Positions 641 to 60,200 of a stretch of DNA of 64,000 nt are shown here, piece after piece (within the stretch, counting starts at the first letter, position 1; the number at the start of each line of letters is the position of its first letter). The DNA lies in contig CAJINV010000014.1 in assembly GCA_905178155.1 (NCBI GenBank), positions 1,443,984 to 1,507,983 of the forward strand, in the 5' to 3' direction. The notes beneath the pieces were generated by a model. The model did no database searches. It was not told where the DNA came from and saw nothing but the letters and a program-made list of their open reading frames with translations. Origin of the DNA: Amoebophrya sp. A120 (lineage: Eukaryota; Protista; Dinoflagellata). The position numbers and the translations under genes are program-made.

Positions 641-2348
641 AAAAATGTTACTCCGGAATTTCAAAAAGTTAATTACTAGGCTTCTGGTTCTTCCGGAACG
701 AGGCCTCGCTGAATTACCACCCCAGAGAAAAGCCAGCTCATCCCGGAATCACTCTGGATGTGGGATTTACGTAGAGAGGCAATTCAGTGAGTTATGACTA
801 CATGAACAAAAAAAAACGCAAACGCTGACCTTTTGCAGTACACATGGCAGAAATAGGGCGAGGGCTACCGATTCAAATTGCAGGTCGTTCCGTAAACGTG
901 TTGCTCTGTCGCCAGTAGCGTTTGCTGCATGGCGCGAAAATTTTTGTTGCGAGCCTTCTAATTGCAGCGCGCTACTGCCCGCGCCACATCGCCGAGAGGA
1001 ACGCCCTGCCACATTGCCTGCAAGGTGCCTGTGGTGTCGTTCGTAAGCCACGCCTGATTTTTGTGGTTCGCAACGTCGCCCGATGTTTTGGCTTCAGTAT
1101 GTTCAAAACGCTCGAAATTGTAGCATTTGGGCCCTCGTTCCCCAACGAGGGGAGTTTCCGACGCGAAAGGGGGGGTCTTTGCAAGTCATGCATGATGTTC
1201 TTGAAAAGATAAAGTCGGGACTCAGCATCATTTTACTTATCATTGTGGCAGTACAACTAGAACTTCTTCTTTCATCTTGCAAGTATGAACAATGGGAGGT
1301 AGTGCTACCAGCTGATGCGATTACGCAGTAAAACTAAAGTGCACAACAGCCAAAACCTAGTTTGAACACAATGCATAGAAGTGGTATCAAATGAATCTGG
1401 AATTTTCGCAAGCCGAAGCCGATTGTTCGATATAGATAAATAGTTTTGCCATTTTTTTTGCATTGTGAGTTCTCCCACACTCCCACACTTTCCACACTCC
1501 CCCCTCGCTTTAGCCGAATCGGATTCTTCACACTACGCAGCAATTATTTTTCGCAGCAGGTAAGAATAAATGTCACACGTTTACGTTTGCAGAAAAGAAA
1601 TTCATTTTCTTAGCCTGTACAACATGTCAAACACAGCAATTTCTTGAGGTTGCAGTATTAACGTGCTCTCTCTTGTTTCTCCGTTTAAGCAAATCTACTT
1701 CTACATGTATCCAACTATTTTCTTTTTTCATCTACCTCACCTCCCAAGAATTCCCACTCCAGAAGTAGTGCCGATTAAGCACATATGTTTCAGATCGAAC
1801 CATAACGGCATGTTTTGAAAGAGGCAGAGCATGATTATAGGCTCGCACTGTACATTTAGTCATCAAATGCAAATCGATGGAATCAGTTGTACGCTCTCGC
1901 CAAGTACTTCAATGAATCTCGTGAAGCGCGGCCACGGCCTTCACAGTCTGAGGGGCTGAAGAGTAAGTCCCGTACTCGCTCAGATGACACATTTCGGAAT
2001 TGACCTTGTTGCACGGAACTCGTCCCTGAGAGAACTGAAGAAGAGTGTCGAGGAGAGTTGTCTGGTTTACATACTAGTTTCTTTCTTCTTCGCTGGGAAG
2101 AAAAAGAACATCAAGGTTGAGGCGACAGGAGTCGTCGTGTGGTAGTAGCAATGTTTCAATCTTGATTTGCTTTTCTACAATCAACATACGAAAAAACAAT
2201 TTGTTTCGGCAGGACCTCCGAATGAAAGAAAAATGCGCGCTTGAATCATGTTGGTCCATGAGGACAAGAAGAGTGAACTTCTGATGCATTTTTATAGAGG
2301 CACGTAGGATCACGATCGTATAATTGAGAAGTAGAAAAACCCGTGAAA

Positions 2349-3978
2349 ATGATGGCCAATCAGGGGTTTGACCCGGCGAAGCAGGGTCAGCCCGTGATGA
2401 TGCAGCCCATGCAGCCTGGGCAACAGATCCCCATGGAACAAATGCAAATGGGGCAGCAGCAGCCCATGATGATGCAGCCCATGGGTACTAGTAGAGTTGT
2501 TTTTCCCTGTAATTTTTCTTCATCATCATGTTTCTATATTTTTTGCTGCTGTTCATTCTTTCGCAGCGGCTCTGGTCGCCTGTCCCGACTAGGCCAACAA
2601 CTTTTTGCTCTTTTCTACACGACCAGGTCAACCGGGAATGATGGTGGGTCCCCCCGTGATGGCCTCCGGCACTCCGATGGGCGCGCCCATGATGCAGGGT
2701 GGCATGATGATGGCTCCGATGGGTCCCGCACAGCTGGAGTGGGAGCGCCCCCGGGTCTGCGCGGAATGTACCTGCGAGTGCTGTTTGGCCGGATGCTGCC
2801 CTTGTATCTCGGTGAGTCAGACGATGACTTTGGCAAAGATGGGCGGGGCGCACGCCCTTATCGTCGGGATTTGCGTGTTCCTTCAGTACTTCTTCGACGG
2901 GTTTAGGAACTATGTACTGTTTTGCTGCATTTTTTTGATGAGACTGGATGTTCTTACTCTTAGCCTGCTGATCCTGATTTTTTGAATGATACTCCGCTTC
3001 AGTGTGATCATAGTTTGATAATCTACTGCCACTGCTTCATCCAACATCTTCCACGAAAACTTCTCCACCGGGGATCTTCCCTGAAGATTCGTGACGATTT
3101 CAAAAACACCAACACTAGCCTTCCGAGACAGACATGTGGAGACTGATCAAGCTTATCGCATGGCTGCTCAACATGGCGGCGGGGATTTGCGAATCTCTGG
3201 CCCTGATCAACTGGAAGCAGCTATCCCAAGTAATTTTTACGCACACGTGCTGCACAATATCCTGGCTTTGCAGGACAAAAGTGTTCTTCAATCCTGCTGC
3301 TCAGCATGACCAGTGATATACCCTAAGCTAGCGAAATTTGTGATGCATTCATTTGCCCGTGTGGGTGTGCGGGAAATTTGTATTGCATAGCAGGCAACCG
3401 GGCGCCACGTCAACGTTCGGGACCCAATATGAACTGCAAAAGTATCGTACTCGTATAAATGCAAGTCTTGCATTACAAATCTTTATCTTAAGGGAAATCC
3501 GCATTACAAACTTCCTTTCTCATGCTGAGGAAATTTGTAATGCATTTATACGAGTACGATACTTTTGCACAGGATACCTAAGTGGGAATTGCGGCGAGGA
3601 TTTCTGCTGTTTCTGTTGCTGCCCGTGCTACGCAATCCCCGCAGTACACCGAACGGTGGAGGACTGGATGCGGATGTATCCACAGTAAACTACTTCTTCC
3701 CGTGATTATGGACCACGACATCCAAAACACTGATACAAATTGCAATGGTCACCAGCGTGCAAATCAAAAGTCTATCTCTTTCTCTACCTTTTAGCATTAC
3801 AACTTCGATAAACAGCGGTTGCTACAGTAGTTTGTCATGCAGATCTTGTACGTCGTGCTCGTGGACGGTAGTAAAATTTGTACTCCATAAGATGGGCGGT
3901 CCCAACATGCAGCAGGGCGGGACTGGCGCACGGATGGCGGTGTCACCAGGGGGCATGATGCAGATGCAACAGCAATAG
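2349..3978 (+). CDS. PLAC8-like cysteine-rich membrane protein, paralog 1 (245 aa, 6 exons)
   Basis: Exons 2349-2484, 2627-2913, 3119-3221, 3395-3427, 3582-3676, 3895-3978 (738 nt, in frame). Two GT-AG introns plus three TIR elements. CCLAGCCPC and EDFCCFCCCPC motifs are PLAC8-like; Q/P/M-rich ends; collinear with paralog at 6552. Confidence 0.8.
3222..3389. mobile_element. TIR introner, family F
   Basis: TATCCCAAGTAATTT...GGGAAATTTGTATTGCATA; flanks GCAGC/GCAGG; absent from paralog 2. Confidence 0.85.
3428..3576. mobile_element. TIR introner, family B
   Basis: TATGAACTGCAAAAGTATCGTACTCGTATAAATGCA...TGCATTTATACGAGTACGATACTTTTGCACAGGATA; flanks CCCAA/CCTAA; absent from paralog 2. Confidence 0.9.
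3677..3889. mobile_element. TIR introner, family F (degenerate)
   Basis: TATCCACAGTAAA...AAATTTGTACTCCATA; flanks GGATG/AGATG; removal gives WMRMGG matching paralog WHRMGG. Confidence 0.8.
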
Positions 3979-4914
3979 CAACAGAAGGAGGATTCGAATC
4001 CCTTCGGTGTCGCGTTTTAGATTGCGAGGAATTTCCAAACGGTGAGTTAGAGGAGGTTGAACGAACGGAAAATCTAAATCGATGCTGAAGGATGTAGTTG
4101 GCTAGGGAAGACGGAGTCGAAGATCGAAAGCTGTTGGGGCCGCAGGTCGATGAAAGCGGAGAGAGAAAGTTTATTTTTTGGTTGTCGGAGTGGGAGTCCA
4201 AATCCGAATCCGATAGACAAAATTCAAACAATTTCATCTTCATCTTCTGTCAGGGCCACGTTCTTTTGCTCTCGGTTCTGTCAAGAAGCGTTCCTTCCAA
4301 CTGAAAAAAATAGCCTCTTCATGCATCGCATTGATATTCTTATTCTTATTCTAGTCCCTCGTCCTCGACGAGAGTTGTACAGGAGTTAAAGCGAATTCAT
4401 AACTTTGAAGAGGAGAATCTGCAGAAGCTTCGTATACCTCTGCGCTTGTGGTTGTGATCTTCGTATCGCACCACATTATGCCCTCGTGCATTGTATGATA
4501 TTCCTATGCGTGCCACATCGCTTGCGGTGTTGTATTGATTTAGATTAACATTTACCCAGAAAATGAAGCCTCTCGTGCTAACATTATGCTGCGCACTATT
4601 GCCAAAATGGATGAGTTGTTTCGCGATTCACTTCTATTTCATCCGTCCGTGTGTACAAAAGAAGAATATTTCCACGAACCGGGCCCGTAAGAATCAAAAA
4701 CCTATAGGTTGCACAAGCAGACAACACCCGCCCCCGCCGTGGTGTGTTAATGTTCTGGTTGATGTCTTCGTTTTGGTTGGGTTCTAGCGCTTTGTCTTTT
4801 TTGTGAGTCGTTTCTTTTCCTCCACCGCTTACGCCCCGCTCAAGGAAGAGCAAGAGGAGCAGACGCGTAATTATTTTCTTGCTTGTGTCTGAGATGAACT
4901 AGCGACGAGAGCAG

Positions 4915-5616
4915 GTATCCGTATGAGGGCGCAGCGTTGTTGGGCTGCATCTTCTGCAGCTGGGGCGAAGGCCTGCCTCAGCCCGCGAGCCCTGCCTGGC
5001 TTCTGCCAGCCGGACCGGCCGCCGGCCGACAGCCAGGCAGGCGCCCCCGCGCGGGCCGTGTTGGCCTTGCTTGGATGCAAGTGCCGGCGAAGGCGCTGCA
5101 GCGGCTTATTAGCAAAGCCGAACCGCATGTCCTAACCAGCGCACAACACCCTCCGAGGGGCGCCCCCCGTTTTTCCGAACCGTGGCGCCATCGTGTCACG
5201 CGTGTGACGCGAGCGGCATGCGCTTCAGTTTTGCAGCGTGGTGGCGTAGGGCGCGCGCCCCGGGGGTTCGCCGGGTCTGTGGTTTTCTTTGGGTCTATTG
5301 CCCGCGCCCAATCTTCGCGCCGGCCGGCGGTCCGCCCATGTACGTAGGTTGTCCAGGACGGCGCAGATAATTCCCGTGGCCCGTCATTCCGTTGTTATGG
5401 CGTGCGCATCGTGTCGCGCATCAGTGATGCGCGACGTATGGAAGCGACCAAGACGATGACTCCGATGCGCGGCGATATATGCAAAGTCGGGACATTTCTG
5501 AGCAGATCCCTGGAGCATTCCTGAGGCATTTCCAGACCCCCTCTGATCACGGGCGGTCCGTGAGTAAGTATCCGTATGAGGGCGCAGCGTTGTTGGGCTG
5601 CATCTTCTGCAGCTGG
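4915..5616. mobile_element. GC-rich 604-bp insert (4964-5567) flanked by a perfect 49-bp direct repeat
   Basis: GTATCCGTATGAGGGCGCAGCGTTGTTGGGCTGCATCTTCTGCAGCTGG at 4915-4963 and 5568-5616. Confidence 0.6.
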
Positions 5617-6424
5617 TGCGATTCCAAAATCGACCGAGATAGCCCCTTAACGTTTTTGATCAACAAGACAGGGAAAATGGCCGCGCCTTGACCCCGGTTG
5701 TTGACGTGAGTGCTCGGAAAGGCCCGGCCGTGTCGCCGAGGCCTCTCGGAGAAGGCATCCCGAGCCGGATCGCGGTTGCCTGGCTTCTTTGGTTGCGTGG
5801 GTGTGGGGTGGCATCGGGCACGCAGCTGGCTGCCCGGCGCGGCTGTGCCGCCCCTCGATGCGAAAGCGGAAGCGTAGTGGGCGCAGTTGGGCGGCCCGCA
5901 TTCGCCGACCGCGCCAAGTTTCGGAAGGGGGCACGGGGGCGGGGGGAAGGGTTTTTGCCTTGGGAGGATTCCCAACGTGGCCCGCGTCGCAGCCGCAACG
6001 AGCTGCAGAAAAAGCGCAAGCGGGGCAAAGGAAGCCAAAGCACAGCTGTGCCTGCGCCCAAAGGTAGCTGCGCTGCGCATGCCCCAGCCCAAGGCCCCGA
6101 AGGTGGGAGATGGGTCCTGCGCCGCTATGAGGCTTCATGACTTGCACGGCCGGCGTGGTACACGAAGCGCTCAAAGTGCTTGAGGTGGAAGCGGTTCGAC
6201 GCTTGTCGCGCGCAACTAGAGGCGTAGTATGCCCCTTGGGTGTCATCAACAGTGCCAGGCCCTGCGAGCCCCAGCAACAAGAGGCGACCGCGCCAACTCC
6301 CTTCGCCTTATTATCGGGAGAGGCGCGAGACCCAAAATTTTTTTTTCGTTTTGTTGAAAAGAAGGTCTTGTTGACAGATTTCGCTACCGTATGTTGGGCT
6401 GCATCTTCTGCAGCTGGTGCGATT
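5591..6424. mobile_element. GC-rich 768-bp insert (5624-6391) flanked by a 33-bp direct repeat
   Basis: TGTTGGGCTGCATCTTCTGCAGCTGGTGCGATT at 5591-5623 and 6392-6424; subterminal inverted TCAACAAGAC/GTCTTGTTGA. Confidence 0.6.
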
Positions 6425-6551: not shown

Positions 6552-7803
6552 ATGGAGTACAAAACCCCTCAAAACGAGTACTCAGCACGGCCAGGCGAGT
6601 ACGGCAATGACCCTGCAGCTGGTGGCTCCACCTCCCCGCCCGGCGGGCAGCCACAGCCAGTCTTCATGCAGCCGCTCCAGCCCGGGCAGCACATACAAAT
6701 GCAGCCGATGGGCCAGCAGCCGATGTACATGCAACCCATGGGCGGACCAGGTGAGAAGTGCCTTGTTGGAAAAAAGCTCGACGTTCAATTTCATCATTGA
6801 CACGTTGCGGCATTGACTTGTAAAAGTAAAAAGACAACACAAGGTCAAGGTGAAACTACAATCGCGATGTATGAAGGATGATACTCTCATCTCACACTCA
6901 CTTCTGAGTTCCACTGGATCTGACACAACTTCTACAGGTGGTCCCCCAATGGTCGGCGCTCCGGTTATGGCTCAGGGCACGCCGATGGGCCACCCCCACA
7001 GCTTCGGCGGCGGACCGATAATCATGGCCCCCATGCACCAGGCCATGCTGGAGTGGCAGAGGCCACAGGTATGCTCCGAATGTACCGCGGAGTGCTGCCT
7101 CGCGGGTTGCTGCCCCTGCATATCCGTGAGCAGCACCATGACACTAGCAAAGATGACCGGCCCCTGGGCGTTTATAGTGGGAATCTTGGTGTTTCTCCAG
7201 TACGTGTCGGACGGGATAAGAAATTCGGTAATCGTCCATACCTGCTGCTTTTTCGTACTGCGTTGTTTGTCTTGCGTCATACTCATCGCAAATTTGGCAC
7301 ACTGTCGTAGCTCGGGTTGTTGGTGCATCAGTTTATGACACCGGCATGATGTTCAACATAAGTAAAACTAAAATTTAAATTGAAAAAAATCCAAAAATCA
7401 GCGTCTCGAAGACGACCCCTGGCCGGCCATCCGGGGTTTAGCCGGCCTGTTCAATCTCGTTTTCAGCATTTCGGAGGCCATGACGCTGGTAAAGTGGAAG
7501 GAAGCCACGGGGCGGCACATTCGCGTCCGCGACCCGGATGGTAACTGCGGCGAGGATTTCTGTCTCTTCTGGTGCTGCGTCTGCTACACCATTCCCGCCG
7601 TGCATCGAACAGTGGAAGACTGGCACCGGATGGGCGGAGGTTCCGGGGGTGGGCAGCTGTCGCCCAATTACCACATGCCACCAACATCTTTTCAGCACGC
7701 GGGGTTAGTGGCCGGGGGACCGACCCCCGTGGTGATGGGGCCGCCAATACAAGTGCAGCAGCAGCCGCAGCAGCAAAGACCAGCCTATCAGGAGGTTAGT
7801 TGA
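6552..7803 (+). CDS. PLAC8-like cysteine-rich membrane protein, paralog 2 (296 aa, 3 exons)
   Basis: Exons 6552-6750, 6938-7227, 7402-7803; both introns GT-AG at positions equivalent to paralog 1; no TIR elements. Confidence 0.85.
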
Positions 7804-20566: not shown

Positions 20567-23500
20567 ATGAATGACTACACACGGTACCGGGCTGCGGTTA
20601 CGCACCCGAACAAGACGCTGGACAAGATGATCCGCCACGAGGAGATGCAGCGCATGAAGACCCGCGTGCGGAACGCAAGCCCGGAAAAGGCGGTGACACT
20701 AGACCTCGGCCGCATCCACGTGAAGAAAATCGAGGCGTACGAGAAGTATCTCCGGCATGAGAGGCTGCAACGGCAGCAGTTCCACGAGCACCAGCAGTCC
20801 CTGCAGTCCATGAAAAGCCGGATACAAAAATCCAGTGCGGCGGTTGTCATACCCGCGCGGGCGATGTTGCTGCAACAAGGGACTAGTACGGGTTCGAAGA
20901 GTCGGAGTTCCTCGGCTCCTGGGACTGGTAACAAGAAACACAAACAAGGGAAGAAAGACCACAATAGTTTGAAAATCACAGGGGAGAAGAACAGATTAGC
21001 TTTAATCCTCGGGAATATCGTCCAAAACCTAGACAACTTATCGAAAAACGACGCGTACCAGGAGGATGAGCAAATTCGGGCGAGGATAAACGCCATCCGG
21101 GAAAAATTTACCGCGATCAAAACGCACATGCGGTACACGCAGGTGCACCAGGTCAGTAGTGAAAACGTGATCAATGACTTAAAAGTCCGCGCGGCGGTCG
21201 CAGCCGGGATCAGACGAGCGGAAAGCATTGTCGCGAAGCAGATGACGAATGCGAGTACTATGCGGGTTGCTGGCAGTGGTGAAGTAGATTTTGAACCAGC
21301 GCAGCAGGAGGCATCTCTGCAAGGAGCACCTGCATCTTCTGGTGTGCAGCAGTCTCAGTCACAACACCCACCGGGAACGCCACCGTTCCCGGCCACTCCG
21401 CCTGGAAGAGGAGCAGAAACAGCTGCTGTTTCAACATCCGGTGGCGCTGGTGGTACTCAAAGTGGAGGAGAAAATACAGCCGTCGCCGCTCAACAGGAGA
21501 ATTTGAACGCAACTAATGTGACAAATGCACCAGCAACTTTCGCGGATCAACCACCGGTCGGGCCGACATTTGCGGCGCATCAAGCTGTAGTTCCAGCAGG
21601 AGGGAGTGATCAAAAACAAGTTCTAGTTGTGCTCACCCAGCCCGAAAAGTCATCCTCTTCCTCTAGCGGGAACAAGAAAGGAAAAGCGTCAGCTTCTTCT
21701 TCAAGTATCAACCCGAAGATGGGTAGCTCAGCAGGAGCAAAAGGAACGTCATCGGGTAGTAGTTCCAAAGACAAAAAAGACGGGAAGAATAACCCTGCTT
21801 CTTCGAAGGAGAAACCTTCCGCCAAGGAAGTCTGTGTCCTCCGGCACCAAGCCGCTGTGATTCAACAACAAGCGTCGGTCATCCAGCAGCAGGCACAGCT
21901 GATTGCGCAGGCCGTGAAGAATGACCAACTGCACGAAACGGGCGGCATGATGGCGGCGGCTCTGGACGTCGCGACAAACCAGGCGCAAAGGGGGCGGATC
22001 ATGAACAATCAAGCCGCCGCAACCATGGCGGGGAAGGACTTCGGGACAGCTGCAAATAAAGCCGGAGGAGATCATCATAAGGCTGCTGGTGGGAAGAAGA
22101 AGCAAGACAAAAAAGACGGAAAGACCGGTCCGCTGGGGAAGAAGAACAAATACGAGCGTGCTGGATCATATCCACTGGAAATTTCCTGTACACAGACAGC
22201 ATACAGATGGTGTTTCTACTACATCTACTGTATGGCGAAACTTTCATCTCTCAAACCTGTTACTGTTTAGCATGACAAGTCGGACGCTTTGAATATGGGG
22301 AAAGTAAAACTTCTATGCAATGATGCATTTCGCACATCATGTACGGGAAATTTATTGCATTGCATAGAGCAAAGTCAAAATTGGCACGCGTGCCGGAGGA
22401 AGCATCTTTCTCCCTCGCAAGTCGCGCCGGGACGGAATCTGTGTTGCATGGGGAGGAAGAGGCGGAAAGAGAACCGGTGGAAGCGGAGACCAGGCCAGTC
22501 AGTGCGTCCGAAGTGGTGGAACAGGAACCAAGGTAATTCTTATGGGTAATTTCAATTTGTGATGCTGGGCATGATGCATAATGCGAAGCTCAGTCGTGCA
22601 AGAAGAAGAACCGCATGAATTCATTTCAAACGAGACTTCTTTTATCGAACTTGAACCTGTAGAAAAACTTCTATCACGACATCAGAACCCCACCCATCCC
22701 GGACAACTTCAATCTGGAAGCCTCCCCCGGCGGGTTGGAAATGACGCACGTCGGCGGCAGAGCCGGCCCGATGGCAAAAGATTTAGTCCAGAACTTAGTC
22801 GACGGCGCCATTCGAAACGATGCCGACACTCCGGAGGACGATAGGTACGGGGGAAGGGAGGTAATCGATTCTGGCGATCAGCTGGACTCGGACAGGATGC
22901 AGAAGAGCAGCCCGAGAGTATTTTAAAACTACAACTAAGTAGTTTATTTCGCTTTTTGCTCGATTTTTGAGATTTTCTATTTTGTTTTTGCATCCCTAAA
23001 TCGAAGAAAACTAAAGATCAATCTATCACCATTCGATCAGGTCGAAAACCAGAACACGCGGCACGCCCGACGGCTCGCGTCATCGCTATGGCGTTCTCAA
23101 ACGTTACATTCTCAACTGATACATGGGTTTATGCAAGAACAGCAACAGTGAAAGCGGCAATATTGCAGCTTTCGCATCACAAATTTGCCACAAATTTTCA
23201 TTTTGTTTAGCCCTTCGAAAATTTGTCATGCAAAGCACCTTGATCAAGTGGAGACCGATGGCAATTTTGCATGAAAAATCCGTGTAACAGTTGAGAATGT
23301 AACAGCTGAGAGCGCCATAATCGCAAGACACGTTTCAGCAAGTGGACCGACCTCCAATAGACCCGAGCCAGCAACACCAGTACTACGATCACCAAACCGG
23401 AGCTGTGGCCCAAGTAGAAGGACCACATCAAGCAGCAACTACACCGGACAACCTCACTTCCGCGCAATTAGAAAGTCTCGATGATGAAAACCAGCGGAAC

Positions 23501-41682: not shown

Positions 41683-44600
41683 ATGCCCACTCGCGACGAG
41701 GAGATTCATTTACACCGAGAAATTCGGCAGACCGTAGCGAACTTCCAGCACCAATTCGTCGGCACCGGCCCAGCTAGTAGCAGCTCTAGCTCGATGTTTA
41801 ACATAATTTCCGGTGGCGGTGGGTCTAATTCTATTTCCGCGGCCCAGACAGGAGGTCAGGGACTTCCTGTTGACTCGCAGCAGCAGCAGCAGCAGAACTA
41901 CTACAGTTCCACGGGTAGGGTGCGAACCAGTCCGAAGAAAAATAGCAGCTCAACATCCTCGTCCTCATCTTCGTACAAGAATGCTGCAATGTTGCAGCAC
42001 CTCCTCTCGGTGGAACAGAACGAAGAAATGAAAAGGGACCAGGAAGAGGCAATTTTGTCCGAGCGGCTGCAGGACCGGCAGAAACAGAACTACTTCGAAT
42101 ACGGGGTGAAGTCCGTGCTGGAGCGGTATATGGAGCTCGGGCAGAAGAGCATGAACCTGAACAACAGCCTAGAAAATAACAATGCGGACGCCGCCGGCGG
42201 CGCGCTCCCGAGCATCAACCACGCCGAATTACTGCAGTCGTTGCAGGAAGAGGAACAGGAGCTGCGGCGGGAGATTGCGGCCGGCGAGATGGAGATGGAA
42301 GAAAGGCAGTTGAAAGACAGAATGAAATATGCAATACAAATTTCCCGTACATGTACAAGATGCATCACAAATTTCACCAATTTGGAGCGTAACGCTTGTC
42401 ATGCTAAACTAGGATCGAAGCCCAATTTTGTCATGCAGAGACTGCATTCGTACGTGAACGTGTGCGGGAAATTTACTGTGGATATGAAACTGATCGAGAT
42501 GTTCGCGGAACAAAATCGGCAGGCTGTGGAGTACGAAAAAATGAAACGCGAATGCGAGGAGATGTATCCTGTGCAAAAGTATCGTACTCGTATAGCAATA
42601 AAGCATTACTACACCTCAAGGTAAATCAGCATTACAAATTTTATTTCTCATGCTGAGGAAATTTGTAAAAGCATTTATACGAGTGCGATACTTTTGCACT
42701 GCATAAGATGGCAAAAGGTACGATAATGTCGTGATCTGTGGGGCTCCAACTTGCTGAGATCTACTTCTAGTTCTACTAAATTCAAATTCAACCACCAGGT
42801 GCACCCCGTAAAGATGTCTGTCATGCGTATAATTACAAGGCTAAGCAAGGATTGTGGAGTTGCAGGAGCAGAAGCAGTTCATCTTTTATTCACGACCACT
42901 TCCTATTTCCTGCATCTTTGCATAACAAAGCCAGAGCTCCAGACTCTTCACTATCACTTCGTATGCGCAAAAACTTGTCGAGAAGCTTTTTTCAACTCGA
43001 CTTCTTCAGATCTGTCCCTCACTCTGACCTCCGAGCAAGACGTTGTGGATAACCACCACCAGCTGCAACAGGATGAGAATTACGACTTGGCGTACCGCTA
43101 TGGATTTGTCAGGATCGAAATCGACAAAGTTGAAATGATTTGTCATGCATAAAATGGATGCCAGTTGTGACCCAGTTTCCAAGTGGCGCATGACAAATTT
43201 GGGTAGAGCCGAGACCCAGTTTGTAATGCTGTTTGGGTAAGGAAGACGCCTTTTGTCATGCTACTTTAGCAGCTCTATTTCTACCCCTCAACAGGCTCAC
43301 AATCTGCCTCCCTTGCCTACTCTGCAAGACAGGCACTTTGTGGGTTGCATTTTATGCATCACAAACTATTTCAACTTTGACGATTTCAATCCTGACGCTT
43401 CCATAACCGCGAGCAGCTTCAGCGGCAAATCGCCGAGGACGAGAAACTGCTGCAATCCCTGCAATATCAAATGCAAAAATGTCTGGGTCTGGAAACTTGT
43501 CCTTGTGATGCTGGTTGAGAAAGACGCGGACGCCTCAATTGACTGGCAAGCATGACAAGTTTTGGAGGAGGTGCTATAGTCTTGGCTTTTCTGCATGACA
43601 AAGTGAGCTTCTGCATGACAGAAAAGTACGGCTTTTGGGTAATGTGCATGACAGACTTGCGAGTGATGTCAGACAAGCATGACAAACTTCCATTCTTCCA
43701 GACCCAGACATATTTGCATTTGATATGCAAGAGGAGGCACTGCACCTGAGCACGGAGGAATCCCAACTGGAGCAGTCGATGTATGGGATTCTCAAACGTT
43801 ACATTCTCAATCTCAAGTGTTATGCGATAATTTGTCATGCAAAGTTACCATATGATTATGTATGAATGTATGCCGCCACACGATCTATCGAGGTGCTTCG
43901 CATGACAAACTCTCGAAGCGGCGCTAAACAGCATGGAAATCTGTGCCAAATTTGTGATGCGAGAGTCGCAAGGCCGCCCCTTTCACTTCTGCCATTCTTG
44001 CATGATCATAAATTCATGACGCTGTAGTTGAGAATGTAACAGTTGAGAACGCCATGCGATGTTTTCGGCGGAGCAGAAGAAAGAGGAAATGCAGGGCCTG
44101 CTGTTGAAGCGCAAAGCGCTGCTAGAAGAAAAGGAGGAACTGGAGCAGATCAGGGAAGGGTATGCAGTTATTCTCATTTTTTTTTGCTAAAGTTGAACAT
44201 GTTCGTTGAGCTTGAGATGAACTTTTGTAATGCTGAATCTTGCATTCCGGGTGATTTTTGTCACGCATAAGATCAACAAGTTCAAGATGCTAGTACATCG
44301 TAATCATCTGCAGGTATCAAAGCGACCTGCGCCACCTGCAAATCGATGTCCCGGTGCTAGACCATTATCCAGTGCAAATTGATATGTCTGGTTCTGGTTC
44401 TGGGTTGTAGTACTCACTTCTGTTACTGGTTCTCGCATCGCAACGAAGCCACTTGTACGACATGACAGCATCAGAAGTTATTTTGTCAGCCGTTTGCGGA
44501 TTTGTTATTCGTATTTGCAGCACTACAAAACATTCCAATTGGCCAATCGTATTCAGCATGCATAATACAGATGATCTTGTTGTCCTTGAAGTCCTACAAC

Positions 44601-44975
44601 ATCACAAACCCAGACCCAGGCACATTTGCAATGCATAACCACACTGGCATGACGATTTCCCTGAGCGGGGTCACCCTGCACGTCCCCTGGCGCATCGCTG
44701 GAGTAGATGCAACCGACCATGGAGAACAACAGGAAGGATTACAAGGAGAACAGCAATTTCATCCAGGAGGTGGCGGCGGCAACTGGGTGACCGAGGAGGG
44801 CTATGTGAAGAAAACCGCACGACGGCCGGGCGACCGAGAGTTCGAGATTACGCAGGCGAAGGTGCTGAACCACCCCGAGATTCAAATCCGGGATCTGATC
44901 GAGGGGGAGGACTTGGCGGGCTTGTGCGAAAAAGTCCGTTACCGGTTTTTTTTACAGAAAGAAACAAAGATTTGA
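41683..44975 (+). CDS. Coiled-coil hypothetical protein with globular C-terminus (467 aa, 9 exons)
   Basis: Exons 41683-42327, 42490-42564, 42711-42717, 43010-43098, 43411-43464, 43731-43781, 44062-44159, 44314-44365, 44643-44975 (1404 nt, in frame); continuous E/Q/L/K-rich helical sequence after splicing. Confidence 0.75.
42328..42484. mobile_element. TIR introner, family F
   Basis: TATGCAATACAAATTTCCCG...CGGGAAATTTACTGTGGATA; TSD TGAAA. Confidence 0.88.
42565..42705. mobile_element. TIR introner, family B
   Basis: TATCCTGTGCAAAAGTATCG...CGATACTTTTGCACTGCATA; TSD AGATG. Confidence 0.9.
43099..43405. mobile_element. TIR introner, family E
   Basis: TATGGATTTGTCAGGATCGAAATCGACAAAGTTGAAAT...ATTTCAACTTTGACGATTTCAATCCTGACGCTTCCATA; TSD ACCGC. 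Confidence 0.92.
43465..43725. mobile_element. TIR introner, family A
   Basis: Family A TIRs; TSD TGCAA. Confidence 0.92.
43782..44056. mobile_element. TIR introner, family D
   Basis: TATGGGATTCTCAAACGTTACATTCTCAA...TTGAGAATGTAACAGTTGAGAACGCCATG; TSD CGATG. Confidence 0.9.
44366..44637. mobile_element. TIR introner, family A-like (degenerate)
   Basis: TATCCAGTGCAAAT..GTCTGGTTCTGG...CCAGACCCAGGCACATTTGCAATGCATA; flanks ACCAT/ACCAC. Confidence 0.82.
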
Positions 44976-48700: not shown

Positions 48701-50560
48701 AAATTGCACGACGAGTGCGATACTTTTGCGCGGCATATTGGTTCCACCACGACAACTCCACAGCTTCGCCCGACCAAATAAAAAAGCGGCATTGCGGACG
48801 ATCGTGGTCGGACGATAGCCATGACTTTGAAAAATGGCTTGGCCCTTTCGTGCGTAGAAGCACTGTCTTACTGAACGCGTACATCGGTGATCTTCTGCTG
48901 TGCCATTCGCCCCCAGTTTCCCAACGCGCACTGGAGCTAGCGAGACCTCCAAGCGCGGACCTGGGTTTTCCAACACCCTGGTCGCTCACCGGTGTGGCGA
49001 TTTAACATGTGGTCTCGGCGATTCTCTTCACGAGCGCGCAGCTGGCTGGCGTGAATTTCCTGACCCGGAAGGGGATCGAGTTAACCGGAGGGGAGCGCGC
49101 ACAGATGGCGAATCAAACGGTGGGGACCGACATCCAGTCGACCACGACGTCCCTCCGCAATGATGAAAGAACGAATGACGCTGATCTCCAGCGCAAGCTC
49201 GTTGCAGTGTCTGCCCCCGTGTCCTTTCGGATGCATGAATGCAGCGGAGACGAAAACGTGCGTCTGTGGGATTTGGCGAAAGAGTACGCCTACAAGAGCG
49301 CTATCCGAGTGCACAACAAGGACAAGAGCTCGAACGCGTTGCTGCCTCCACTAGAAGCATCGTCGGGGGTTTCGAAACTTATCATGCTGTAAAATAAAAG
49401 ATGTAGAGCGCCAAGAAAAGGGATGACGTTATGTACTCAAAAGTAGGTGGCGCAGAGAATGTCTTCCGTTTCTTCTATTCGACTTCGGTATTTGCGTCCA
49501 ACATGACCACATATGAGGTAGAAGAGTGTCGGGGGGTCGGGTTGTGCACTCTCAGACACGCGGGTCTCAAGCCCCATGCCTACGCTGGTCGATTCTGGTG
49601 GTTGACCAGGGAGGAAAGCGCCGATATCATGAGGAAAAACGTCTTCCACAGCCCATACCCAGCATGAAAATGAATATATCTGCGGCTGGAAGATCAAGAC
49701 CTAGCCTCCCACTTCCTTCTGCACGTTCGCCACGATCGCAGATCCATGTTGCAAAGAGCCGCGCGGGAGATGCACTCCGCGGTAGATTTTTTTCTGGGTA
49801 TTATGCAAATTCGCATGACAAATCGAATTCGACACTGGGGGTGGAGAATCATACGTTTTTACACAGCATAGCGGACGCCACCGAGAAGCTGCGGACCTAC
49901 ATGGGGCCGGGCACCCTACCAGTGTTGGTCTTGGGGGATGTGGTGGACGTAACGGGAAGGGCAGACTGGCAGCAAAAACAATTCCGAAAACGTTTTGCCC
50001 TCGACTCCTGGAGAGGCTGGTGGCGCCGCTTTAAAAGCCCGGACATGCATCTGATGATGCGTTGCGAAAAGTGGGCTGACCGGGTGAACATTCGCGCCAT
50101 CTTGGCAATCGAGGAAAAAGACGTGGACCAGATTCGAAACGCCGTCCGGGCTGCGGTTCGCTTGGTGGCCAACAGTAAGAAAGAGCCGATGTCCAGCAGA
50201 AGTGGCGGAACCAGCAGCGCCGCGGGTTTCCCAGCGTCCGGTGTGGGCGAGGAGTCATCGTTTTCGGCGCATCAAGAAAAAACCGCAAGGGAAGCTGTAG
50301 CAGGCAGCCAGCAGCTTTTCGACGCATCAGAGGAACAGTCGGCGGCTCAATTTTCTGTACAAGAGGACTCTGTCTCTCAGTTGCCGTTGAAGCTGGTCGT
50401 AATGACGCTCGCGGAGGCCGACAAAGATCTCAAACTATTTGAGAACCGTGACAAGACGAAGGAGTGGATTCCGGCTGATCTGCTCGCAGAGTGGTACAAT
50501 CGAAACGCCATTGATTTTGCTTCAACCCAAGGACGGACAGCCGCAACTCCGAGCAGGTGA
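45753..50560 (+). CDS. Large hypothetical protein with N-terminal hydrophobic segment (multi-exon; two junctions unresolved)
   Basis: Coding blocks 45753-47055, 47747-47861, 48266-48498, 48743-about 49369, about 49447-49624, 49876-50560; GT-AG intron 47056-47746 and three exonic TIR elements. In-frame TAA at 49003 and the junction near 49370-49450 are not resolved. Confidence 0.6.
47086..47478. mobile_element. TIR element family G (about 53-bp TIRs) inside a canonical intron, with nested inverted repeats
   Basis: TATGGCCGTACTAAC...GTTAGTACGGCCATA; flanks GTTGA/ATTGA; inner 20-bp IR 47224-47243/47321-47340. Confidence 0.88.
47862..48260. mobile_element. TIR introner, family E
   Basis: TATGGCAGTGTCGGGTTCGAAAT...ATTTCAAACCAGACACTTCCATA; flanks AAGGG/CAGGG. 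Confidence 0.85.
48499..48737. mobile_element. TIR introner, family B (degenerate)
   Basis: TATGCTCGGTAAAAGTATCGC...GCGATACTTTTGCGCGGCATA; flanks TTGGC/TTGGT. Confidence 0.82.
49625..49870. mobile_element. TIR introner, family J (degenerate)
   Basis: TATCATGAGGAAAAACGT...ACGTTTTTACACAGCATA; flanks GCCGA/GCGGA. Confidence 0.8.
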
Positions 50561-51720: not shown

Positions 51721-52721
51721 ATGGACGAGTGGCAGTTTGACAGTTCAAAAACAGCAATGAAGTCCGACTACCAGCACGCTTGCGATTTCCTGAAGAAAAG
51801 GTGGTCACCCGTGAGGAAAAAGTATTTTTCTATGACATAACCTCCAATTTTTATTTTTGTTTCCTGGCTGTCTCTGTCGTTCATTCACATTCTACATTTA
51901 CATTTTTTTCATGTTCACCTTACTTCTCCTCGTGCGCATGGGTCCGTCGTCGCTGTCCTCAATATATATGGTATGTGATTGTCTTTGTCATTCTCATTGT
52001 CTTTGTCCTCACTTGTCGTTGTGTTGTCTGATATAGAAAAAACCAAATATGTTTGCGGCACCATCTCTGCCCAAAAATAAACCAGGAAAGCGGACGTTCC
52101 CATCCCCTTCGACATGCGAGACAGCAAAAATGTGAAGACGCTGTTCGGGCACCCGTTTGCGCACAAGTTATCCCCAGAAAAAGTGTTAACGTTTACGGTT
52201 TTCGCAGATTGCAGCCATGCATCACAAATTTAGCCTAGTGTGCATGCTATGCATGACAAATTTGGGCACGCTTTGTGATGCATTGCCGCATCACAAATTC
52301 CTTAAACGTATAACACTTTTTCCTGTGATACCAGTGTGAGTCGCTTTACATCGACAGTTACCAATCCGACGCGTGGCATAGAAGAGGTATTATTTAATAT
52401 CGGAAGATGAAAATGACGCATTCTCGTGTCGCAAATGCTTGCAAACAGGTTCAGAGGAGGACGGGGGAGTATATCCAATCATATCGTCCTCATCGTCATC
52501 CGAATTATGAATCTTACCAACCAACAAATACAAAACTAGCCAGAAGTACTTCTAAAGGCGAAATAAATTTCAAACATATACAGAAAACGCAAAACCACTA
52601 TGCATCACCATCAGGTCTCCACAAGGCTCGGAAGGAGTGTGGTATAAATGGGCTATCCACCACGGATGTGACCAAAATGGCGGAGGGAATGGACCTGATG
52701 AAGAATGTGGTGCGGAAGTAA
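51721..52721 (+). CDS. Small hypothetical protein (about 106 aa, 4 exons)
   Basis: Exons 51721-51800, 52086-52168, 52336-52386, 52615-52721 (321 nt, in frame); two GT-AG introns and one TIR element. Confidence 0.6.
52169..52330. mobile_element. TIR introner, family H
   Basis: TATCCCCAGAAAAAGTGTTA...TAACACTTTTTCCTGTGATA; flanks CAAGT/CCAGT; several GCAT(C/G)ACAAAT motifs. Confidence 0.85.
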
Positions 52722-54200: not shown

Positions 54201-57200
54201 ATGGCGTCCTCCTCGACTTCTCCGCCGCCGCCTGACTCGATGAACACCGCCAAGCTCGTCGAGGACCTGGAGAAGACCATTTACGCATGGCAAAAGGATC
54301 ACAGTCGCACTACCTAGTAGAAAACAAAATTCTTGCATGATGAAAATGAATCTTCTCCACTCCCGCCAAATTAATTGAAAACTTAAAAGTGCACCAGGCA
54401 AGGAAGAAAGCCACGACTCCCTGTAGAGAACCTCTTGGCCGCCGTCCCGTCTTACCATTTTTCACTTCGCTTGTTCACGTCACCTGAAGATTCATCTTCT
54501 TGACCTCCTACTTGGGAACCAGGAGAGAAGTTTGATGACATCACGCGTGCATGCAATCAGATTCAGAATCGGAAGTAAAAGTGCAGCTAGGATACAACTT
54601 TTGCGCCGGATACCACCCTGCAGAAGTTCAAGCTTAAATACAACAGCCAACCCGAGACCGGGATTATCAGGCACCTGAAGTACTACGACTTGACAAATAC
54701 CGGAAAGCTGGATTGGAAGTCGTTTCAAAAATCGATGGAGCAATACGCGATTGGGGCTCCGTTGGACGTTTTGCAGCTATTGTTCAACCGATACGCGAAC
54801 GCCACGAAAAACCCCCTGCAGTCCAACACCGGGTCGCTTCTACTGGAAATCCGGTCCTTCGCAAAATTTATCGTAGACGGAACCGTCCGGACGTATTACG
54901 CAAGTCTGGCAGAAACCCAAGAAAGCGCTGCAAATGGTGCGGCAATAAGGGAAGAAGTAAACGTACATGATAAAAATCTTTCTTGCAAAGTAGAAGTTCG
55001 GTGGAGATGTTGTCTAAATTTTAAAAATCAAGTGTTTTTTTTAATACTGCTTTTCTTTTTCAAGTGTTTCTTTAGTTGCTCGAAATGATCATGATAATTC
55101 GTCAACAAGAACACGTCGACTCTCAAGTTATTTGACAAGTAGAAACCTTTTATTCAACACCAGCCGCGCTCCACCGCTGGTTCATCCTCTCAGCGTTCCT
55201 CCACGGCGCCCCGCCCTCCCCACTCGCCGACAGCACCCTCGACGAAGACGGTGCCTGGTTTTCTGCGCGCGTTGCGGGAAAACTTGTTCCCCCGGGGCCC
55301 CGGGAAGGTGCTGGAACTCGTGAATTTGTTCATGCAGTACGACGAAAAAAACTACCGCGTGCTCCCGATAGAACTCCTGATGAGCATCCTGGATCAAAAG
55401 CTGAACTTGGTCGACGGCGCACTATGCGTTGCAAATGTGTAGTCTGGGGGTCGTGGGTAATTCGTGATGCGAAAGTTCAAGGACAACGACGAGATCTGTA
55501 TCATGGCGTAGAAAAGATCGCTCTGGCATGCAACACTCTTCAGCAAGAACACCAACTCGCTGCGTTTCTCCAGACGACCCAGACATGTCTGCCTTTGATA
55601 CGCGGGAGATTTAGACCCGCTTGCGTACAACAAAATCGACGGCCGCACCATGGCTCTGGTGTTGCCCACCTGGGCGGATCCGTACGACAGGAACCTAATT
55701 CTCTACGACGATTTCCTCGCTGAATTGAAGATTCCGCTCAACCACGAAAGAAGACAAGCGGTGCGGGCGGCGTACAGGAAATTAGACCCGGATCAGGAGG
55801 GGTTTGTAAACTTGAGCGATTTGGAACGGGCATACAATGTTAGCAGGTAAAAAAATTCGTGGTCGTGAGGATTGTTTTTTTTGCATCCCTGTAGTACTTC
55901 TTCGTTCATTTGTCGTATGGAAAAAAAGATCGAGAAGGTCTTGACGTAATTTATTCAGTGATGTTATCACTACCTTCAGACTAATAAACTCCACTTCCTC
56001 ATGAAATTCCAATCGAATCTGATAGAAGCAGGAGCTCCTCGCAGTGAAGATAATGATTCACAGCTGCACAAGATTCACGTCGTCACTACGTACATCCAAA
56101 AATATTGAACCTATCCCCCAGGCACCCTTACGCCGTGATGGGAGCTCAAGTGCCCGACTCCCTTTATAATGAGTTTCTGGACAGCCTGATGCACTTTCTC
56201 CAGTACCGCCGTGGGGTTTTGGACATCTCCAAGACGGCGGCGGGCGAGCGGATCCCCTGGGAGGAGTTCGAGGCCTACTATCAAAAGTAAAAATGTCTGG
56301 GTCTGGAAACTTGTAATGCTGGGTGGCGTCTCATGATGAGGCTACAGATGCTGGCTCAGCATGACAAGTTTCTGAGCTCCTAGGTGTTGCCTATTCTGCA
56401 TGACAAACTGCGCTTCTGCATCACAGAAAAGCGGAGCTCTTGGGTAACGTGCATGACAGACTTAAGAGTCATGCCAGACAAGCATGACAAACGTGAATTC
56501 TTCCAGAGGACCCAGACATTTTTACAGTTGATCCCTACTACGAAATGCTGAATGGTTGCTATCCCGAAGACACCACTTTTCTGTGCATCCTCACCAGGTG
56601 CTGGGATGTCGACAAGCCCTCTGTGGGTGGTACTGGAGTAGACAGGACTTCTGCCACCTCATCTGCCACTGCAGCACTCGGAGGTGGGGGCCAAGCCGGC
56701 GGCCCACCAGGAGCTGTGCTGGACTTCAACGGGTATGGGGAACAAAGTGCGGGGCAGCAGGTGACGGGGAAGATAAACAAGCAGAGTCAGCAGCAACAGC
56801 AAATGCTCGAAGACGAATATTACAGGCGGGACGCGATGCCGGCCGCCGGGCAAAAGGGGAAGGAACGGGTGGGGTTGCACCACTGGCAAGCGAACACCTT
56901 GGCGGAAAGCCACACGTACAGGAACGTCGGAGAAGTTGCCGATTTGAAGGTACTCGAGGAGACTACAGCACTGTCGTGGCGTTTGATAGTTTTCAGTTTT
57001 TCATCTTGAATTTATAGGAGGTTTGAGATTTTCGCAATTTTTTTTCTTATGTACTTTACTATCATGTTGCCTTGGTTCATTCTTGCTCGCTCGCATTTTT
57101 TTGCATGCTCCTTCCTACAGGGCATCTTCCGTGAGGCCTGCGAGTACCTGTCGCGCAAGGGCGGCGTGCGGATGGCGATGGAAGTGGTCCGCAACTACGT

Positions 57201-60200
57201 GCTAGCCGATGACAACCTGGATGACTATCTGGACCGGGCAGAATTTCGTAAAGCTAGCAGGGACTCGGGGCTACGGTTCACGCAGGACGAGGAAAGCGAC
57301 ATTTTCGATCTGCTTGGAGAGGTTACGGTATCACGGTTAATTGGACTTTGACTATCGATGAAATTTTTCCAGGTGGCGGAGCAAACCTTTTTGAAAAACG
57401 CATGACATACATAGCACAGAAACAAAAATTACGCAGACCAAACGCCCAGTGAAAAACCCGTCTTCCGACCCGCAGCCGGAGCGGCTCCTCCCCCTGTTTT
57501 CCTTTCTCCGCGCATTTTTCGACGGCGGTTTGAATGCAGCGCGCTACGACATTGTCCACGCCGCATGGGTATCAAATGTAAAAATGTCTGGGTCTGGAAG
57601 AGTCATGCTGTTTCTGCATGACACAGCAGGTGGGTTTTTTAAGTCGTTTTTTAAGATGGGTTTTTTTTGCAGAAATCACTTTTTTAAGATGGGTTTTTTC
57701 GTATTTAGGACTGTGCCATAGTAGATGACTTTACCGCTTTTTTACTTTTCTTTTATCCCTCAGCGCTGGTGGGTCTGCCGGCAAAATTATCCCTACTCAG
57801 ATAGCTACAAAGCTCATCCCGCAGCCGTCCCAGGAGCTCTTGTGGCTGTCTCTCGGTAGAGATCGCTTTGCCCGTGCTTATTCCACTCAGAGTTTGCTGG
57901 GTAGGTGGCTACCGTTTTAAGTTTATAAACGAATGGGACGCCCTGCCCTTAGCCTTCCAACATGACACAGCAGGTGCAGGTCTGGCATGCTGGAAGCTCT
58001 AGCATCACAGGTTTCGAGAAGCTTCCGCAATGCCGAACCCGCATGACAAATCCCCCACTTTGGTGACAGAAAGTGGGCAGCTTTTGCTACCCATGCATGA
58101 GAGATTTTTGTGTGTTCTGAAATGCGCATGACAAGTTGCTCTTCCAGACCCAGACATTTTTACATTTGATAATGGGCTCTGGTTGCCGGGGGAGACAGCG
58201 CCGTGATTCCGCCACAGAATTTGAGGCAACACCTATTGAGAGGAAAAATCCCCCCTCCCCATATTGAAAAGGTATGTTTCCAAAAATTTGTGTTGCGGAT
58301 TTGAGGTCACAAATCACATCTGTCTTGCAAGAAGACAAGGGCAGAAGCTTCCGCCTCATTATGGAAGCGATTTGCCACGCTGTTGAGCCTCAAGGGGAGC
58401 CGTTTGCCATGCTGAACAACTAGACCCATACGCCCCTACCTAGCCTGGGGATCTGGCCGCCATGCCTTTCTGCAATACAAAGCTGATCTGTGGCCACAGA
58501 TCAGCATCACAAATTTCCGTTTTGAATTTGATATGGGGAGGGGGGATTTTTCATTTTGATAACACCTCTCCTTTAGCACGCACCCGGAGGTGCTGCAGGC
58601 ACCGAGCGCCGAAGCAAGGGACAGGCTGACTCAGCAGCGTATACTCTTTCCTAGTTGATGATTTTATTTTAGTTTTAGAGCGAAAAATGTTTCTAGATCA
58701 TGTAAGGAAAGCAGCTTCAGGGCTGCATGCGCACGATAAGCACTTTTAGGTTTATTGGCCATTGTTTGTTCGTTTGCCTTTCGGTGCATCAAGTTGCAGC
58801 CGGTCGTACTACCGTGCGGCAGCCAGGCACGATTCTGATAGTGCTGAAATTCAAATGAATTCGAATTCCACATCAGTGACGACCGAGTTTCTGGACACTT
58901 TTTCTCTGTACGTGAACGTGACCGGAAGACTCAGCGAGGAGGGCAATCTGAACTTCGCGACGTTCCTCGGCTACTTCGAAATCTACTCCGCAATGATCAC
59001 ATCTGACGCCTACTTTGACGTCGTCATCCGCCGTATGTGGGGCCTCTCGTCTATTCCCTGAAAATTAACCATCTCCATCCAATTTGTCATGCAAAACATG
59101 TAGTAAAGTCTGTGCTTGTCATGCAAAAAGTGGATGGGGATGGTTAATTTTCAGGGAATATCGTCTGATAAGGACATCGAAGAAATCGACGGTCTGCCGC
59201 CAGTATCAAATGCAAATATTTTTACGTCTGGGTCTGGAAGATTAGATTGCAAGATTCATTTGCTACAGCGCTTGCCCGGCAACGGCATGACCATGATCGA
59301 AGACTCTGCGCTGCTCTATTGCATGCTCACGAGGAAGATGAGCTTCCTCTTCCTGCTAAGAACCTGTTATGCAAACACGCGGCTACCATGCGAAATAGGC
59401 AACAGATTGTATTTGTCGCCACACAAAAATCATAGTACTCATGACTTTCAACCTCATCTTCAACCTGTCAAAATCTTAATCTGTCCTGCTTGGCTGTGCA
59501 ACCTTGTAGTGCGGTCATTTTTATTCGCAGACTCGCGGCAGAACTTTCCAGGTGCAGACCCATATTTGCAATGTAAACCCAGTCCTGCCACAAGCCCCGA
59601 CCAGTCAGAAGGTCTCGCGGTCGTCAAAGTCCAATGTCAACGAAGACACCAGTAATTTGGATATGAAAGTGCACAACTCCATCTCCCCCTCGTCTTCTGA
59701 CTTCTGAAGGCGTACGAGTGTGAGAAGCATCAGCAACACAGTCGGCGACAGAATGAATGTGGGCCCCGCATGACAAGAAATTTTCCCCGCGGCGCGGATT
59801 GGAGTACTCTTTGAAAGCGGGCCAAAGTTTGTCTTGCAGAGAGTGCTTAATCTAAAAAAAAAAAGGCACAAACGAAACAGGATGTGGATTTGGTATTTTG
59901 CATTATACCAATGGGGGCCGCGGGAGTTGTGCGCTCTCATATTAAAGTACGCGGGTTTAGGATACGGCGCCAACCTTGCGAACGTATCGGACGGGAGGGG
60001 CTCGAATAAGGACGCAAAACAGTACCCGAATCCGACGTCCCCCATCTACGAATCCAGCCACGTGCGGGCGGCGCTCTTTCAGGAGCCTGTCAAGCTAAAC
60101 TCTGCGGACGACTACTTTCACCACCTCTGTCGCAGAATAAGAGGGATCTTGAGCAAGTACAGTATATTTAGTAAAAAGTGTTTTTATGCATTTTTTCGCA

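What the first reader, a model, noticed from the sequence alone, without database searches (positions are those of the whole stretch)
3217..3894. TSD mismatches locate the splice cut inside the 5-bp duplication (after nt 3 or 4)
Seen: the three elements in paralog 1 have imperfect TSD pairs whose mismatches change the amino acid. GGATG/AGATG: the paralog residue Arg needs position 1 from the left copy. CCCAA/CCTAA: Pro needs position 3 from the left copy. GCAGC/GCAGG: Ala needs position 5 from the right copy. Inference, assuming one register and conserved residues: the intron is 1-2 nt plus element plus 4-3 nt, so cuts are staggered at a fixed distance from the hairpin base and ignore sequence. 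Left TSD position 5 is G in only about 11 of 42 cases, so there is no selection to create GT.
Basis: partly seen in the sequence, partly recalled or inferred. Interest (0 to 1): 0.78.

Follow-up and report, generated by a model that had tools for sequence, protein, structure and literature searches.

The report
Fixed splice cut in transposon introns
These are the already published transposon-derived introns of the marine parasite Amoebophrya A120; at two fully informative sites transcript assemblies show the cut exactly one base before and four bases after the element, without normal GT-AG ends, and this position likely lets a relaxed version of the ordinary splicing machine read the element's TAT start as a donor site.

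Summary
Observation confirmed and sharpened. The window is Amoebophrya sp. A120; the elements are its published TAT…ATA introners with 5-bp duplications. The annotated protein has Ala, Pro and Arg as predicted. Transcript contigs (one sample) fix the cut exactly after TSD base 4 at two elements (54282, 55423). All 14 informative junctions allow register 4; five exclude register 3. GSK, HKC and TEK hold; WF was untested. There is no selection for GT or AG (11 and 3 of 45 here; 90 and 20 of 259 in related metagenome loci).

'Ignores sequence' and 'hairpin base' are weaker. Register 4 places TAT at +2..+4, matching the host's GTAT donors. The +2 T never changed in 259 copies while its pairing partner changed 10 times (p=0.002). 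All nine top A120 non-canonical motifs in the published table start NT. The two decisive introns have no predicted terminal pairing. Best reading: a relaxed spliceosome (0.6, inferred). The system is published, with borders called unresolved; this scan reported the same register on other DNA of this genome.

The parts
2349..3978 (+). Host gene, paralog 1 (245 aa, weak PLAC8-like match), two GT-AG introns and three introner introns
   Evidence: P0001 maps exactly; Pfam PLAC8 E=5e-5, below the curated cutoff
3217..3221 (+). Left TSD GCAGC of element 1; bases 1-4 exonic, base 5 is intron +1 under register 4
3221..3393 (+). Intron 1 under register 4 (CT..AG): 1 nt + element 3222-3389 + 4 nt; the model allows a cut after base 0-4
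   Evidence: P0001 Ala
3390..3394 (+). Right TSD GCAGG of element 1; base 5 exonic
3427..3580 (+). Intron 2 under register 4 (AT..TA): element 3428-3576, TSD CCCAA 3423-3427 / CCTAA 3577-3581; the model allows 3-5
   Evidence: P0001 Pro
3676..3893 (+). Intron 3 under register 4 (GT..AT): element 3677-3889, TSD GGATG 3672-3676 / AGATG 3890-3894; the model allows 1-5
   Evidence: P0001 Arg
6552..7803 (+). Paralog 2 (296 aa), without the three elements; serves as empty-site reference
   Evidence: P0002
17879..18198 (+). Element with GACAC/GACGC; transcript contig keeps base 4 from the left copy (cut after 4 or 5)
   Evidence: read from contig piece coordinates (piece resumes at 18203 after 50 unlisted letters)
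22169..22366 (+). Element with GATCA/GAGCA; base 3 from the left copy (GSK)
   Evidence: piece ends 22166; P0006
30736..30917 (+). Element with ACGGA/ACCAA; annotated TEK, cut after 4 or 5
   Evidence: P0004
31019..32429 (+). 1.4-kb element with barely matching flanks TCGAT/GCTTT; the annotated protein needs base 4 from the left copy
   Evidence: P0004; no RNA laid here
44366..44637 (+). Element with ACCAT/ACCAC; base 5 from the right copy in 4 of 4 runs
   Evidence: joint 44360->44638, both=4
49625..49870 (+). Element with GCCGA/GCGGA; cut after 3-5 in 3 of 4 runs
   Evidence: joint 49622->49874, both=2
52169..52330 (+). Element with CAAGT/CCAGT; cut after 2-5 (HKC) in 4 of 4 runs
   Evidence: joint 52165->52333, both=3
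54281..54616 (+). Decisive intron (TT..AC): degenerate element 54282-54612 starting TAC, TSD CCATT/CCACC, cut exactly after base 4
   Evidence: joint 54280->54617, both=0, 3 of 4 runs
55422..55604 (+). Decisive intron (CT..CG): element 55423-55600, TSD CGCAC/CGCGG, cut exactly after base 4
   Evidence: joint 55421->55605, both=0, 3 of 4 runs
56279..56533 (+). Element whose last base is changed (..ATC), still removed as its length + 5
   Evidence: joint skips 260 in 4 of 4 runs
59662..59941 (+). Element with TTGGA/TTAAA; annotated LEY, cut after 4 or 5
   Evidence: P0005

Best explanation
These TAT…ATA mini-transposons are removed from transcripts together with five extra bases, cut one base before TAT and four bases after ATA at the two sites that resolve it exactly, most likely by a relaxed U2-type spliceosome that reads N-UAU as the host donor G-UAU and does not need G at +1 or a final AG. 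Shown: removal as length + 5; the register; a hybrid TSD left in the mRNA; no GT or AG enrichment; insertion in both orientations; direction-specific invariance of the +2 T. Inferred: that the spliceosome does the chemistry; that the 3' cut is counted from the element's 3' terminal motif, with inner arm pairing only bringing the ends close; that 1 + 4 equals the 5-bp TSD, so a new insertion restores the original mRNA at any target, which would explain the spread.
For: Two single-element joints with no ambiguity, both at register 4, each in 3 of 4 runs. All 7 informative transcript junctions and 7 further model-based ones allow register 4; chance under independent random registers is 0.0013 for the 7 and 1.4e-5 for the 14. 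Host GT-AG donors: A at +3 in 19 of 22, GTAT in 10 of 22. In 259 oriented copies from related metagenome loci, the 5' terminal T changed 0 times and its 3' partner 10 times, p=0.002; of the first 20 arm positions (203 copies) none other is as lopsided, and the largest family lies 70:70 in both orientations. The four window elements with altered 3' ends and the one with an altered 5' end all keep T-A at the 5' start. Farhat 2021 Table S4: all nine predominant A120 non-canonical motifs start GT, CT, AT or TT; A25 motifs start TT and its repeats start TTA, again T at +2 and A at +3 (the reading is mine). The paper reports all but six of 89 spliceosomal proteins and U2, U4, U5, U6 in A120.
Against: No lariat, branch point or spliceosome binding was tested. 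A branch A at -7 is not supported: it changed in 4 of 259 copies, against 5 for its partner. Nothing explains how the 3' cut is chosen without AG, while 22 of 22 canonical introns end YAG. U1 snRNA was not found in A120. The GTAT donor consensus may partly come from old introners, so the match is not fully independent. The RNA evidence is contigs from one sample and study, which hide minor forms. The chance that some common register, including a whole copy, fits the 7 transcript junctions is 0.10; that register 3 or 4 fits is about 0.04. Splicing of the metagenome copies is not shown, and their strand was inferred from a codon model that put 24 of 26 window candidates on +. Position 19 also leans one way (p=0.022) among 20 positions tested.
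Confidence: 0.6

Rival explanations
1. A spliceosome-independent nuclease and ligase cuts at fixed distances from the base of the terminal hairpin, regardless of sequence (the first reader's model; like the route proposed for euglenid nonconventional introns).
For: Most elements have strong predicted arm pairing. Intron ends are diverse, with 30 different end pairs in 45 elements and none GT-AG at register 4. U1 was not found. Euglenid nonconventional introns are excised as circles (PMC11282704).
Against: Both decisive introns, and 22169, 3677 and 59204, have predicted terminal pairing near 0. Elements 3222, 3677 and 55423 fold no better than shuffles, z +0.28, +1.09 and +1.49. An element with a broken terminal pair is still removed as length + 5. 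Pairing alone predicts symmetric tolerance, but the observed changes are 0 against 10.
Confidence: 0.2
2. A dedicated protein, such as a domesticated transposase or new RNA-binding factor, binds the terminal or internal repeat motifs and either positions the spliceosome or does the excision itself.
For: A shared internal motif in either orientation occurs 93 times in 12.4 kb of elements and 4 times in the other 52 kb; 38 of 45 elements carry it. It clusters near both ends. Farhat 2021 proposes a novel protein subunit.
Against: 7 of 45 window elements and 18 of 245 pooled elements lack the motif as searched. It is equally expected as a DNA-level transposase site. No such protein was sought here. 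Partly compatible with the best explanation.
Confidence: 0.15
3. The register varies between elements or molecules, and the apparent constancy is chance, contig majority-calling or RNA editing at the junction.
For: Contigs drop rare variants. Farhat 2021 describes splice sites as variable relative to the hairpin and reports possible editing at 4% of A120 intron borders.
Against: 14 of 14 informative junctions allow register 4, and two fix it exactly. Editing would have to produce exactly the other copy's base twice. Perfect TSDs make aligner borders slide, which would account for the published variability (inference).
Confidence: 0.05

Closest known systems
Introner elements (IEs) of Amoebophrya sp. 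A120 (Farhat et al. 2021, PMC7789003; also Gozashti et al. 2025, PMC12130899)
   Same: Same organism (annotated proteins 100% identical to window exons). Inverted repeats start TAT with an A run after about ten bases; 3-5 nt direct repeats; non-GT-AG ends; removed from RNA.
   Different: The paper calls the splice sites variable relative to the hairpin and the border unknown (Fig. 3 legend; Fig. S23: 1-5 nt) and sees no clear signature. Here one register is fixed and a +2 T signal is shown. The paper's Table S4 and its remark on four nucleotides upstream hint at this register without stating it.
Non-canonical MITE-derived introns of the tunicate Fritillaria borealis (PMC13326754; PMC11282704)
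   Same: Transposon-derived introns with TIR and TSD and diverse ends, with borders placed through duplicated motifs; removed by a modified U2-type spliceosome.
   Different: Mostly AG/AC and AG/AT ends with YAY triplets; U1 is retained and U2AF duplicated. In A120 the +2 T is kept, +1 and the last four bases are free, and U1 was not found.
Introners of Micromonas, Aureococcus, Symbiodinium and Polarella (bioRxiv 10.1101/2020.10.14.339549; PMC11282704)
   Same: TIR DNA transposons that create introns with a family-specific fixed relation between TSD and splice sites, some in both orientations.
   Different: In the passages read they supply or recruit real splice dinucleotides (GT/GC/GA, AG) and so need particular target sequences; the A120 elements show no such target bias.
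Euglenid nonconventional introns and hemistasiid diplonemid non-canonical introns (PMC11282704; PMC12621601)
   Same: Paired intron ends, TSD-like repeats, no GT-AG.
   Different: Different lineage and motifs; euglenid introns leave as circles. Whether A120 introns do was not testable here.

Membership tests
Amoebophrya A120 introner elements | In the A120 genome | tested here: met
   100% identical annotated A120 proteins for three genes
Amoebophrya A120 introner elements | Terminal inverted repeats starting TAT with a downstream A run | tested here: met
   arms are degenerate in elements 3222 and 3677
Amoebophrya A120 introner elements | 3-5 nt direct repeat at the borders | tested here: met
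   5-bp TSD, perfect in 27 of 45
Amoebophrya A120 introner elements | Removed from transcripts without GT-AG | tested here: met
   six element joints, two more read from pieces; 0 of 45 are GT-AG at register 4
Amoebophrya A120 introner elements | Repeated families | tested here: met
   ten families listed, the largest with 140 members, across window and loci
U2-type spliceosomal introns | GU donor | tested here: not met
   +1 G in 11 of 45; +2 T in 45 of 45 at register 4
U2-type spliceosomal introns | AG acceptor | tested here: not met
   3 of 45 in the window, 20 of 259 in the loci, at or below chance
U2-type spliceosomal introns | Branch-point adenosine | tested here: inconclusive
   A at -7 is no better conserved than its partner, 4 against 5 changes in 259
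U2-type spliceosomal introns | Lariat intermediate and snRNP dependence | not testable with these tools
   no raw reads of this strain were found (runs X10 and X11 did not hold the window)
Euglenid-type nonconventional introns | Stable pairing of the intron ends | tested here: inconclusive
   strong in most young elements, absent by prediction in both decisive introns
Euglenid-type nonconventional introns | Release as full-length circular RNA | not testable with these tools
   only contigs of spliced RNA were available
MITEs (non-autonomous TIR DNA transposons) | TIR, constant TSD, no coding capacity, either orientation | tested here: met
   lack of coding capacity judged from length (109-602 nt, one of 1411 nt), not searched
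MITEs (non-autonomous TIR DNA transposons) | Cognate transposase | not tested
   no whole genome is held

The most novel reading that the evidence does not exclude
Amoebophrya A120 runs a U1-less spliceosome, or a second machine, whose only sequence demand is U at +2 with a UAU-like start. It places the 3' cut four bases past the element end with no AG and no fixed branch point. Transposons with TAT ends and a 5-bp duplication are then excised seamlessly at any site and in either orientation, and the same rule was reached separately in strain A25 with TTA ends.
Probability: 0.35. Interest if true: 0.8.

Novelty: new variant of a known kind. Interest (0 to 1): 0.5.

Why it matters
About 65% of RNA-supported A120 introns are non-canonical, and their splicing rule is an open question in the genome paper. 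A single register turns an apparent lack of splice signals into a testable rule (N|TAT…ATA-NNNN|). It allows the borders of some 30,000 introners to be re-annotated and says where to look for lariats and snRNA contacts. It also offers a reason why these transposons spread without harming genes.

Tried and rejected
No whole genome is held, so no genome-wide count was possible. Rfam found nothing in the window. Laying a DNA run with them filled the joint table, so joints for 3222, 3428 and 3677 were not shown. No joints were listed for 47086, 47862 or 48499; this is lack of cover, not evidence. An exact look-up of P0001 found no transcript contig. A codon-likelihood test of which TSD copy is exonic, on 33 imperfect elements in the metagenome loci, gave no signal and no stop codons. 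A branch adenosine at -7, suggested by an earlier scan note, was not supported. Window proteins P0001-P0005 had no tblastn hit in the 148 loci, so no empty sites were found. One canonical intron end was mis-set by 2 nt and corrected; the end of element 30736 was mis-set by 1 nt and corrected.

Full report
Identity. Exons of the window match annotated proteins of Amoebophrya sp. A120 at 100%; a fourth match came without a name. Farhat et al. 2021 (PMC7789003; I read passages, sections 11 and 16, and supplement passages with Table S4; figures were not available) describe A120 introner elements. They have inverted repeats starting TAT, direct repeats of 3-5 nt and non-canonical ends, and the authors call the border position unknown and variable relative to the hairpin. 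The system is therefore known; the question is the exact cut.

Observation. I catalogued 45 elements in the window. Of these, 27 have a perfect 5-bp duplication; in the first list of 43, no other length from 3 to 8 matched exactly in any element. The three named elements and their mismatches are as described. The annotated 245-aa protein has Ala, Pro and Arg at the three junctions, allowing cuts after TSD base 0-4, 3-5 and 1-5. These models were built with transcript alignments according to the paper's methods, so they are indirect cDNA evidence. I did not see direct joints for these three.

Register. I laid four contig sets from one sample on 44200-56800. They are labelled RNA by guess, but they join six GT-AG introns and one ends in poly(A). 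Two elements differ at both TSD base 4 and base 5, so each fixes the cut alone: CGCAC/CGCGG gives joint 55421 to 55605, and CCATT/CCACC gives 54280 to 54617. Both have zero ambiguity, appear in 3 of 4 runs, and fall after base 4. Three more joints allow 0-4, 3-5 and 2-5. From contig piece coordinates, 17879 allows 4-5 and 22169 allows 3-5. Annotated proteins add 30736 (TEK), 31019 and 59662 (each needs base 4 from the left copy) and 24451 (1-5). All 14 informative junctions allow register 4. Register 3 is excluded by three transcript junctions and three models, and a whole right or whole left copy is excluded by the two decisive ones. Under independent random registers, the chance that the 7 transcript junctions all fit register 4 is 0.0013, that they fit 3 or 4 is about 0.04, and that they fit any one register is 0.10; for all 14 and register 4 it is 1.4e-5. 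Three imperfect elements in the laid stretch (47086, 47862, 48499) gave no joint, and 59204 is uninformative at the protein level.

No GT or AG selection. At register 4, 11 of 45 introns start GT, 3 end AG and none has both. A pattern search found the same families in metagenome contigs (151 loci, 148 available as files, 545 kb; the 80 listed all share one assembly prefix). The detector found 290 unique candidates, of which 262 passed the stricter filter and 259 had enough flank; it gave 0-2 hits on three shuffled windows against 32 on the real one. G at +1 occurs in 90 of 259, against about 31% G in flanking exon, and AG in 20 of 259. At 3222 and 55423 the exonic copy has G at base 5 while the intronic copy has C, so an original GT start was probably lost without harm (inference).

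Sequence does matter at +2. Register 4 makes the intron start N-T-A-T. The 22 GT-AG introns mapped here start GTA in 19 cases and GTAT in 10, and all end YAG. After orienting the metagenome copies by coding potential alone, the 5' terminal T is unchanged in 259 of 259, while its 3' partner changed 10 times (p=0.002; 0 against 6 in the 135 best-oriented copies, p=0.03). Positions 2 and 3 are symmetric (1 against 2, 5 against 4), which gives no support for a branch A at -7. Families lie in both orientations (70:70 in the largest), so the asymmetry follows transcription and any signal must sit in the symmetric ends or be flexible. Published Table S4 agrees: all nine predominant A120 motifs have T second, and all nine A25 motifs start TT, where the repeats start TTA. 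The authors drew no register from this.

Hairpin. Most elements have strongly paired arms by prediction, but 54282, 55423, 22169, 3677, 48499 and 59204 show about zero probability for the symmetric terminal pairs. Elements 3222, 3677 and 55423 fold no better than shuffles; 55423 keeps an inner stem only. Element 56279, whose last base is changed, is still removed as length + 5. A ruler from a stable hairpin base is therefore doubtful, although folding predictions ignore bound proteins.

Mechanism. The simplest account is a U2-type spliceosome with relaxed end recognition that takes N-UAU as donor and counts the acceptor from the element's 3' end (0.6). The paper reports nearly all spliceosomal proteins but no U1. 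Fritillaria offers a precedent for a modified spliceosome handling MITE introns (PMC13326754; abstract and sections 21 and 30 read). Rivals are a hairpin-guided nuclease-ligase (0.2), a dedicated repeat-binding factor (0.15) and variable registers (0.05). The chemistry is untested. My confidence in register 4 as the dominant rule is about 0.93.

Novelty. Six literature searches found no statement of this register. I read passages only of PMC12130899, PMC11282704, PMC11453091, PMC12621601 and bioRxiv 10.1101/2020.10.14.339549; subscription papers, figures and most supplements were out of reach, and Farhat Figs 3 and S19-S23 may show more than their legends. The scan's own unreviewed notes report the same 1 + 4 register on other pieces of this genome; they are not independent support. 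The result is a real and useful refinement of a published system, not a new system.

Noticed in passing
window, 45 elements: A shared 9-base internal motif (TTGT[C/G/A]ATGC or its reverse complement) occurs 93 times inside elements of different families and 4 times elsewhere, clustered near both ends; possibly a transposase or splicing-factor site.
   Followed up: partly
window 31019-32429: A 1.4-kb element with almost no TSD match is removed as length + 5 in the annotated model; possibly a recombinant of two elements. No RNA was laid here.
   Followed up: partly
window 44160-44313 and 32505-33624: GT-AG introns that start GTAT; the first carries the internal introner motif and the second scores as an element end, so some canonical introns may be old introners.
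   Followed up: no
window 32480-32535 and 33420-33475: About 55 bases around an exon end and donor site are duplicated inside the following intron.
   Followed up: no
window 253-660: Cluster of direct and inverted repeats built on AGTGAAAATTCA-like units, unrelated to the introner ends.
   Followed up: no
window 4906-4970, 5559-5623, 6392-6424: Three copies of a 33-63 base repeat upstream of paralog 2; no Rfam match.
   Followed up: no
window 49098-49558: RNA contigs show two C>G differences in one run and, in three runs, a 26-base loose end resembling 49273-49298 with a few changes; a paralog, allele or editing.
   Followed up: no
window, left TSD base 4: C is rare at the last exon base in the window (3 of 45) but not in the metagenome loci (75 of 259), so this is probably chance.
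   Followed up: yes
L001-L151: A metagenome assembly carries the same introner families as A120 at roughly 65-80% identity over long matches, although the paper calls the families strain-specific (against A25).
   Followed up: partly
window 47086-47478 and 47862-48260: Two elements with imperfect TSDs in a stretch with no RNA cover; possibly outside coding exons.
   Followed up: no
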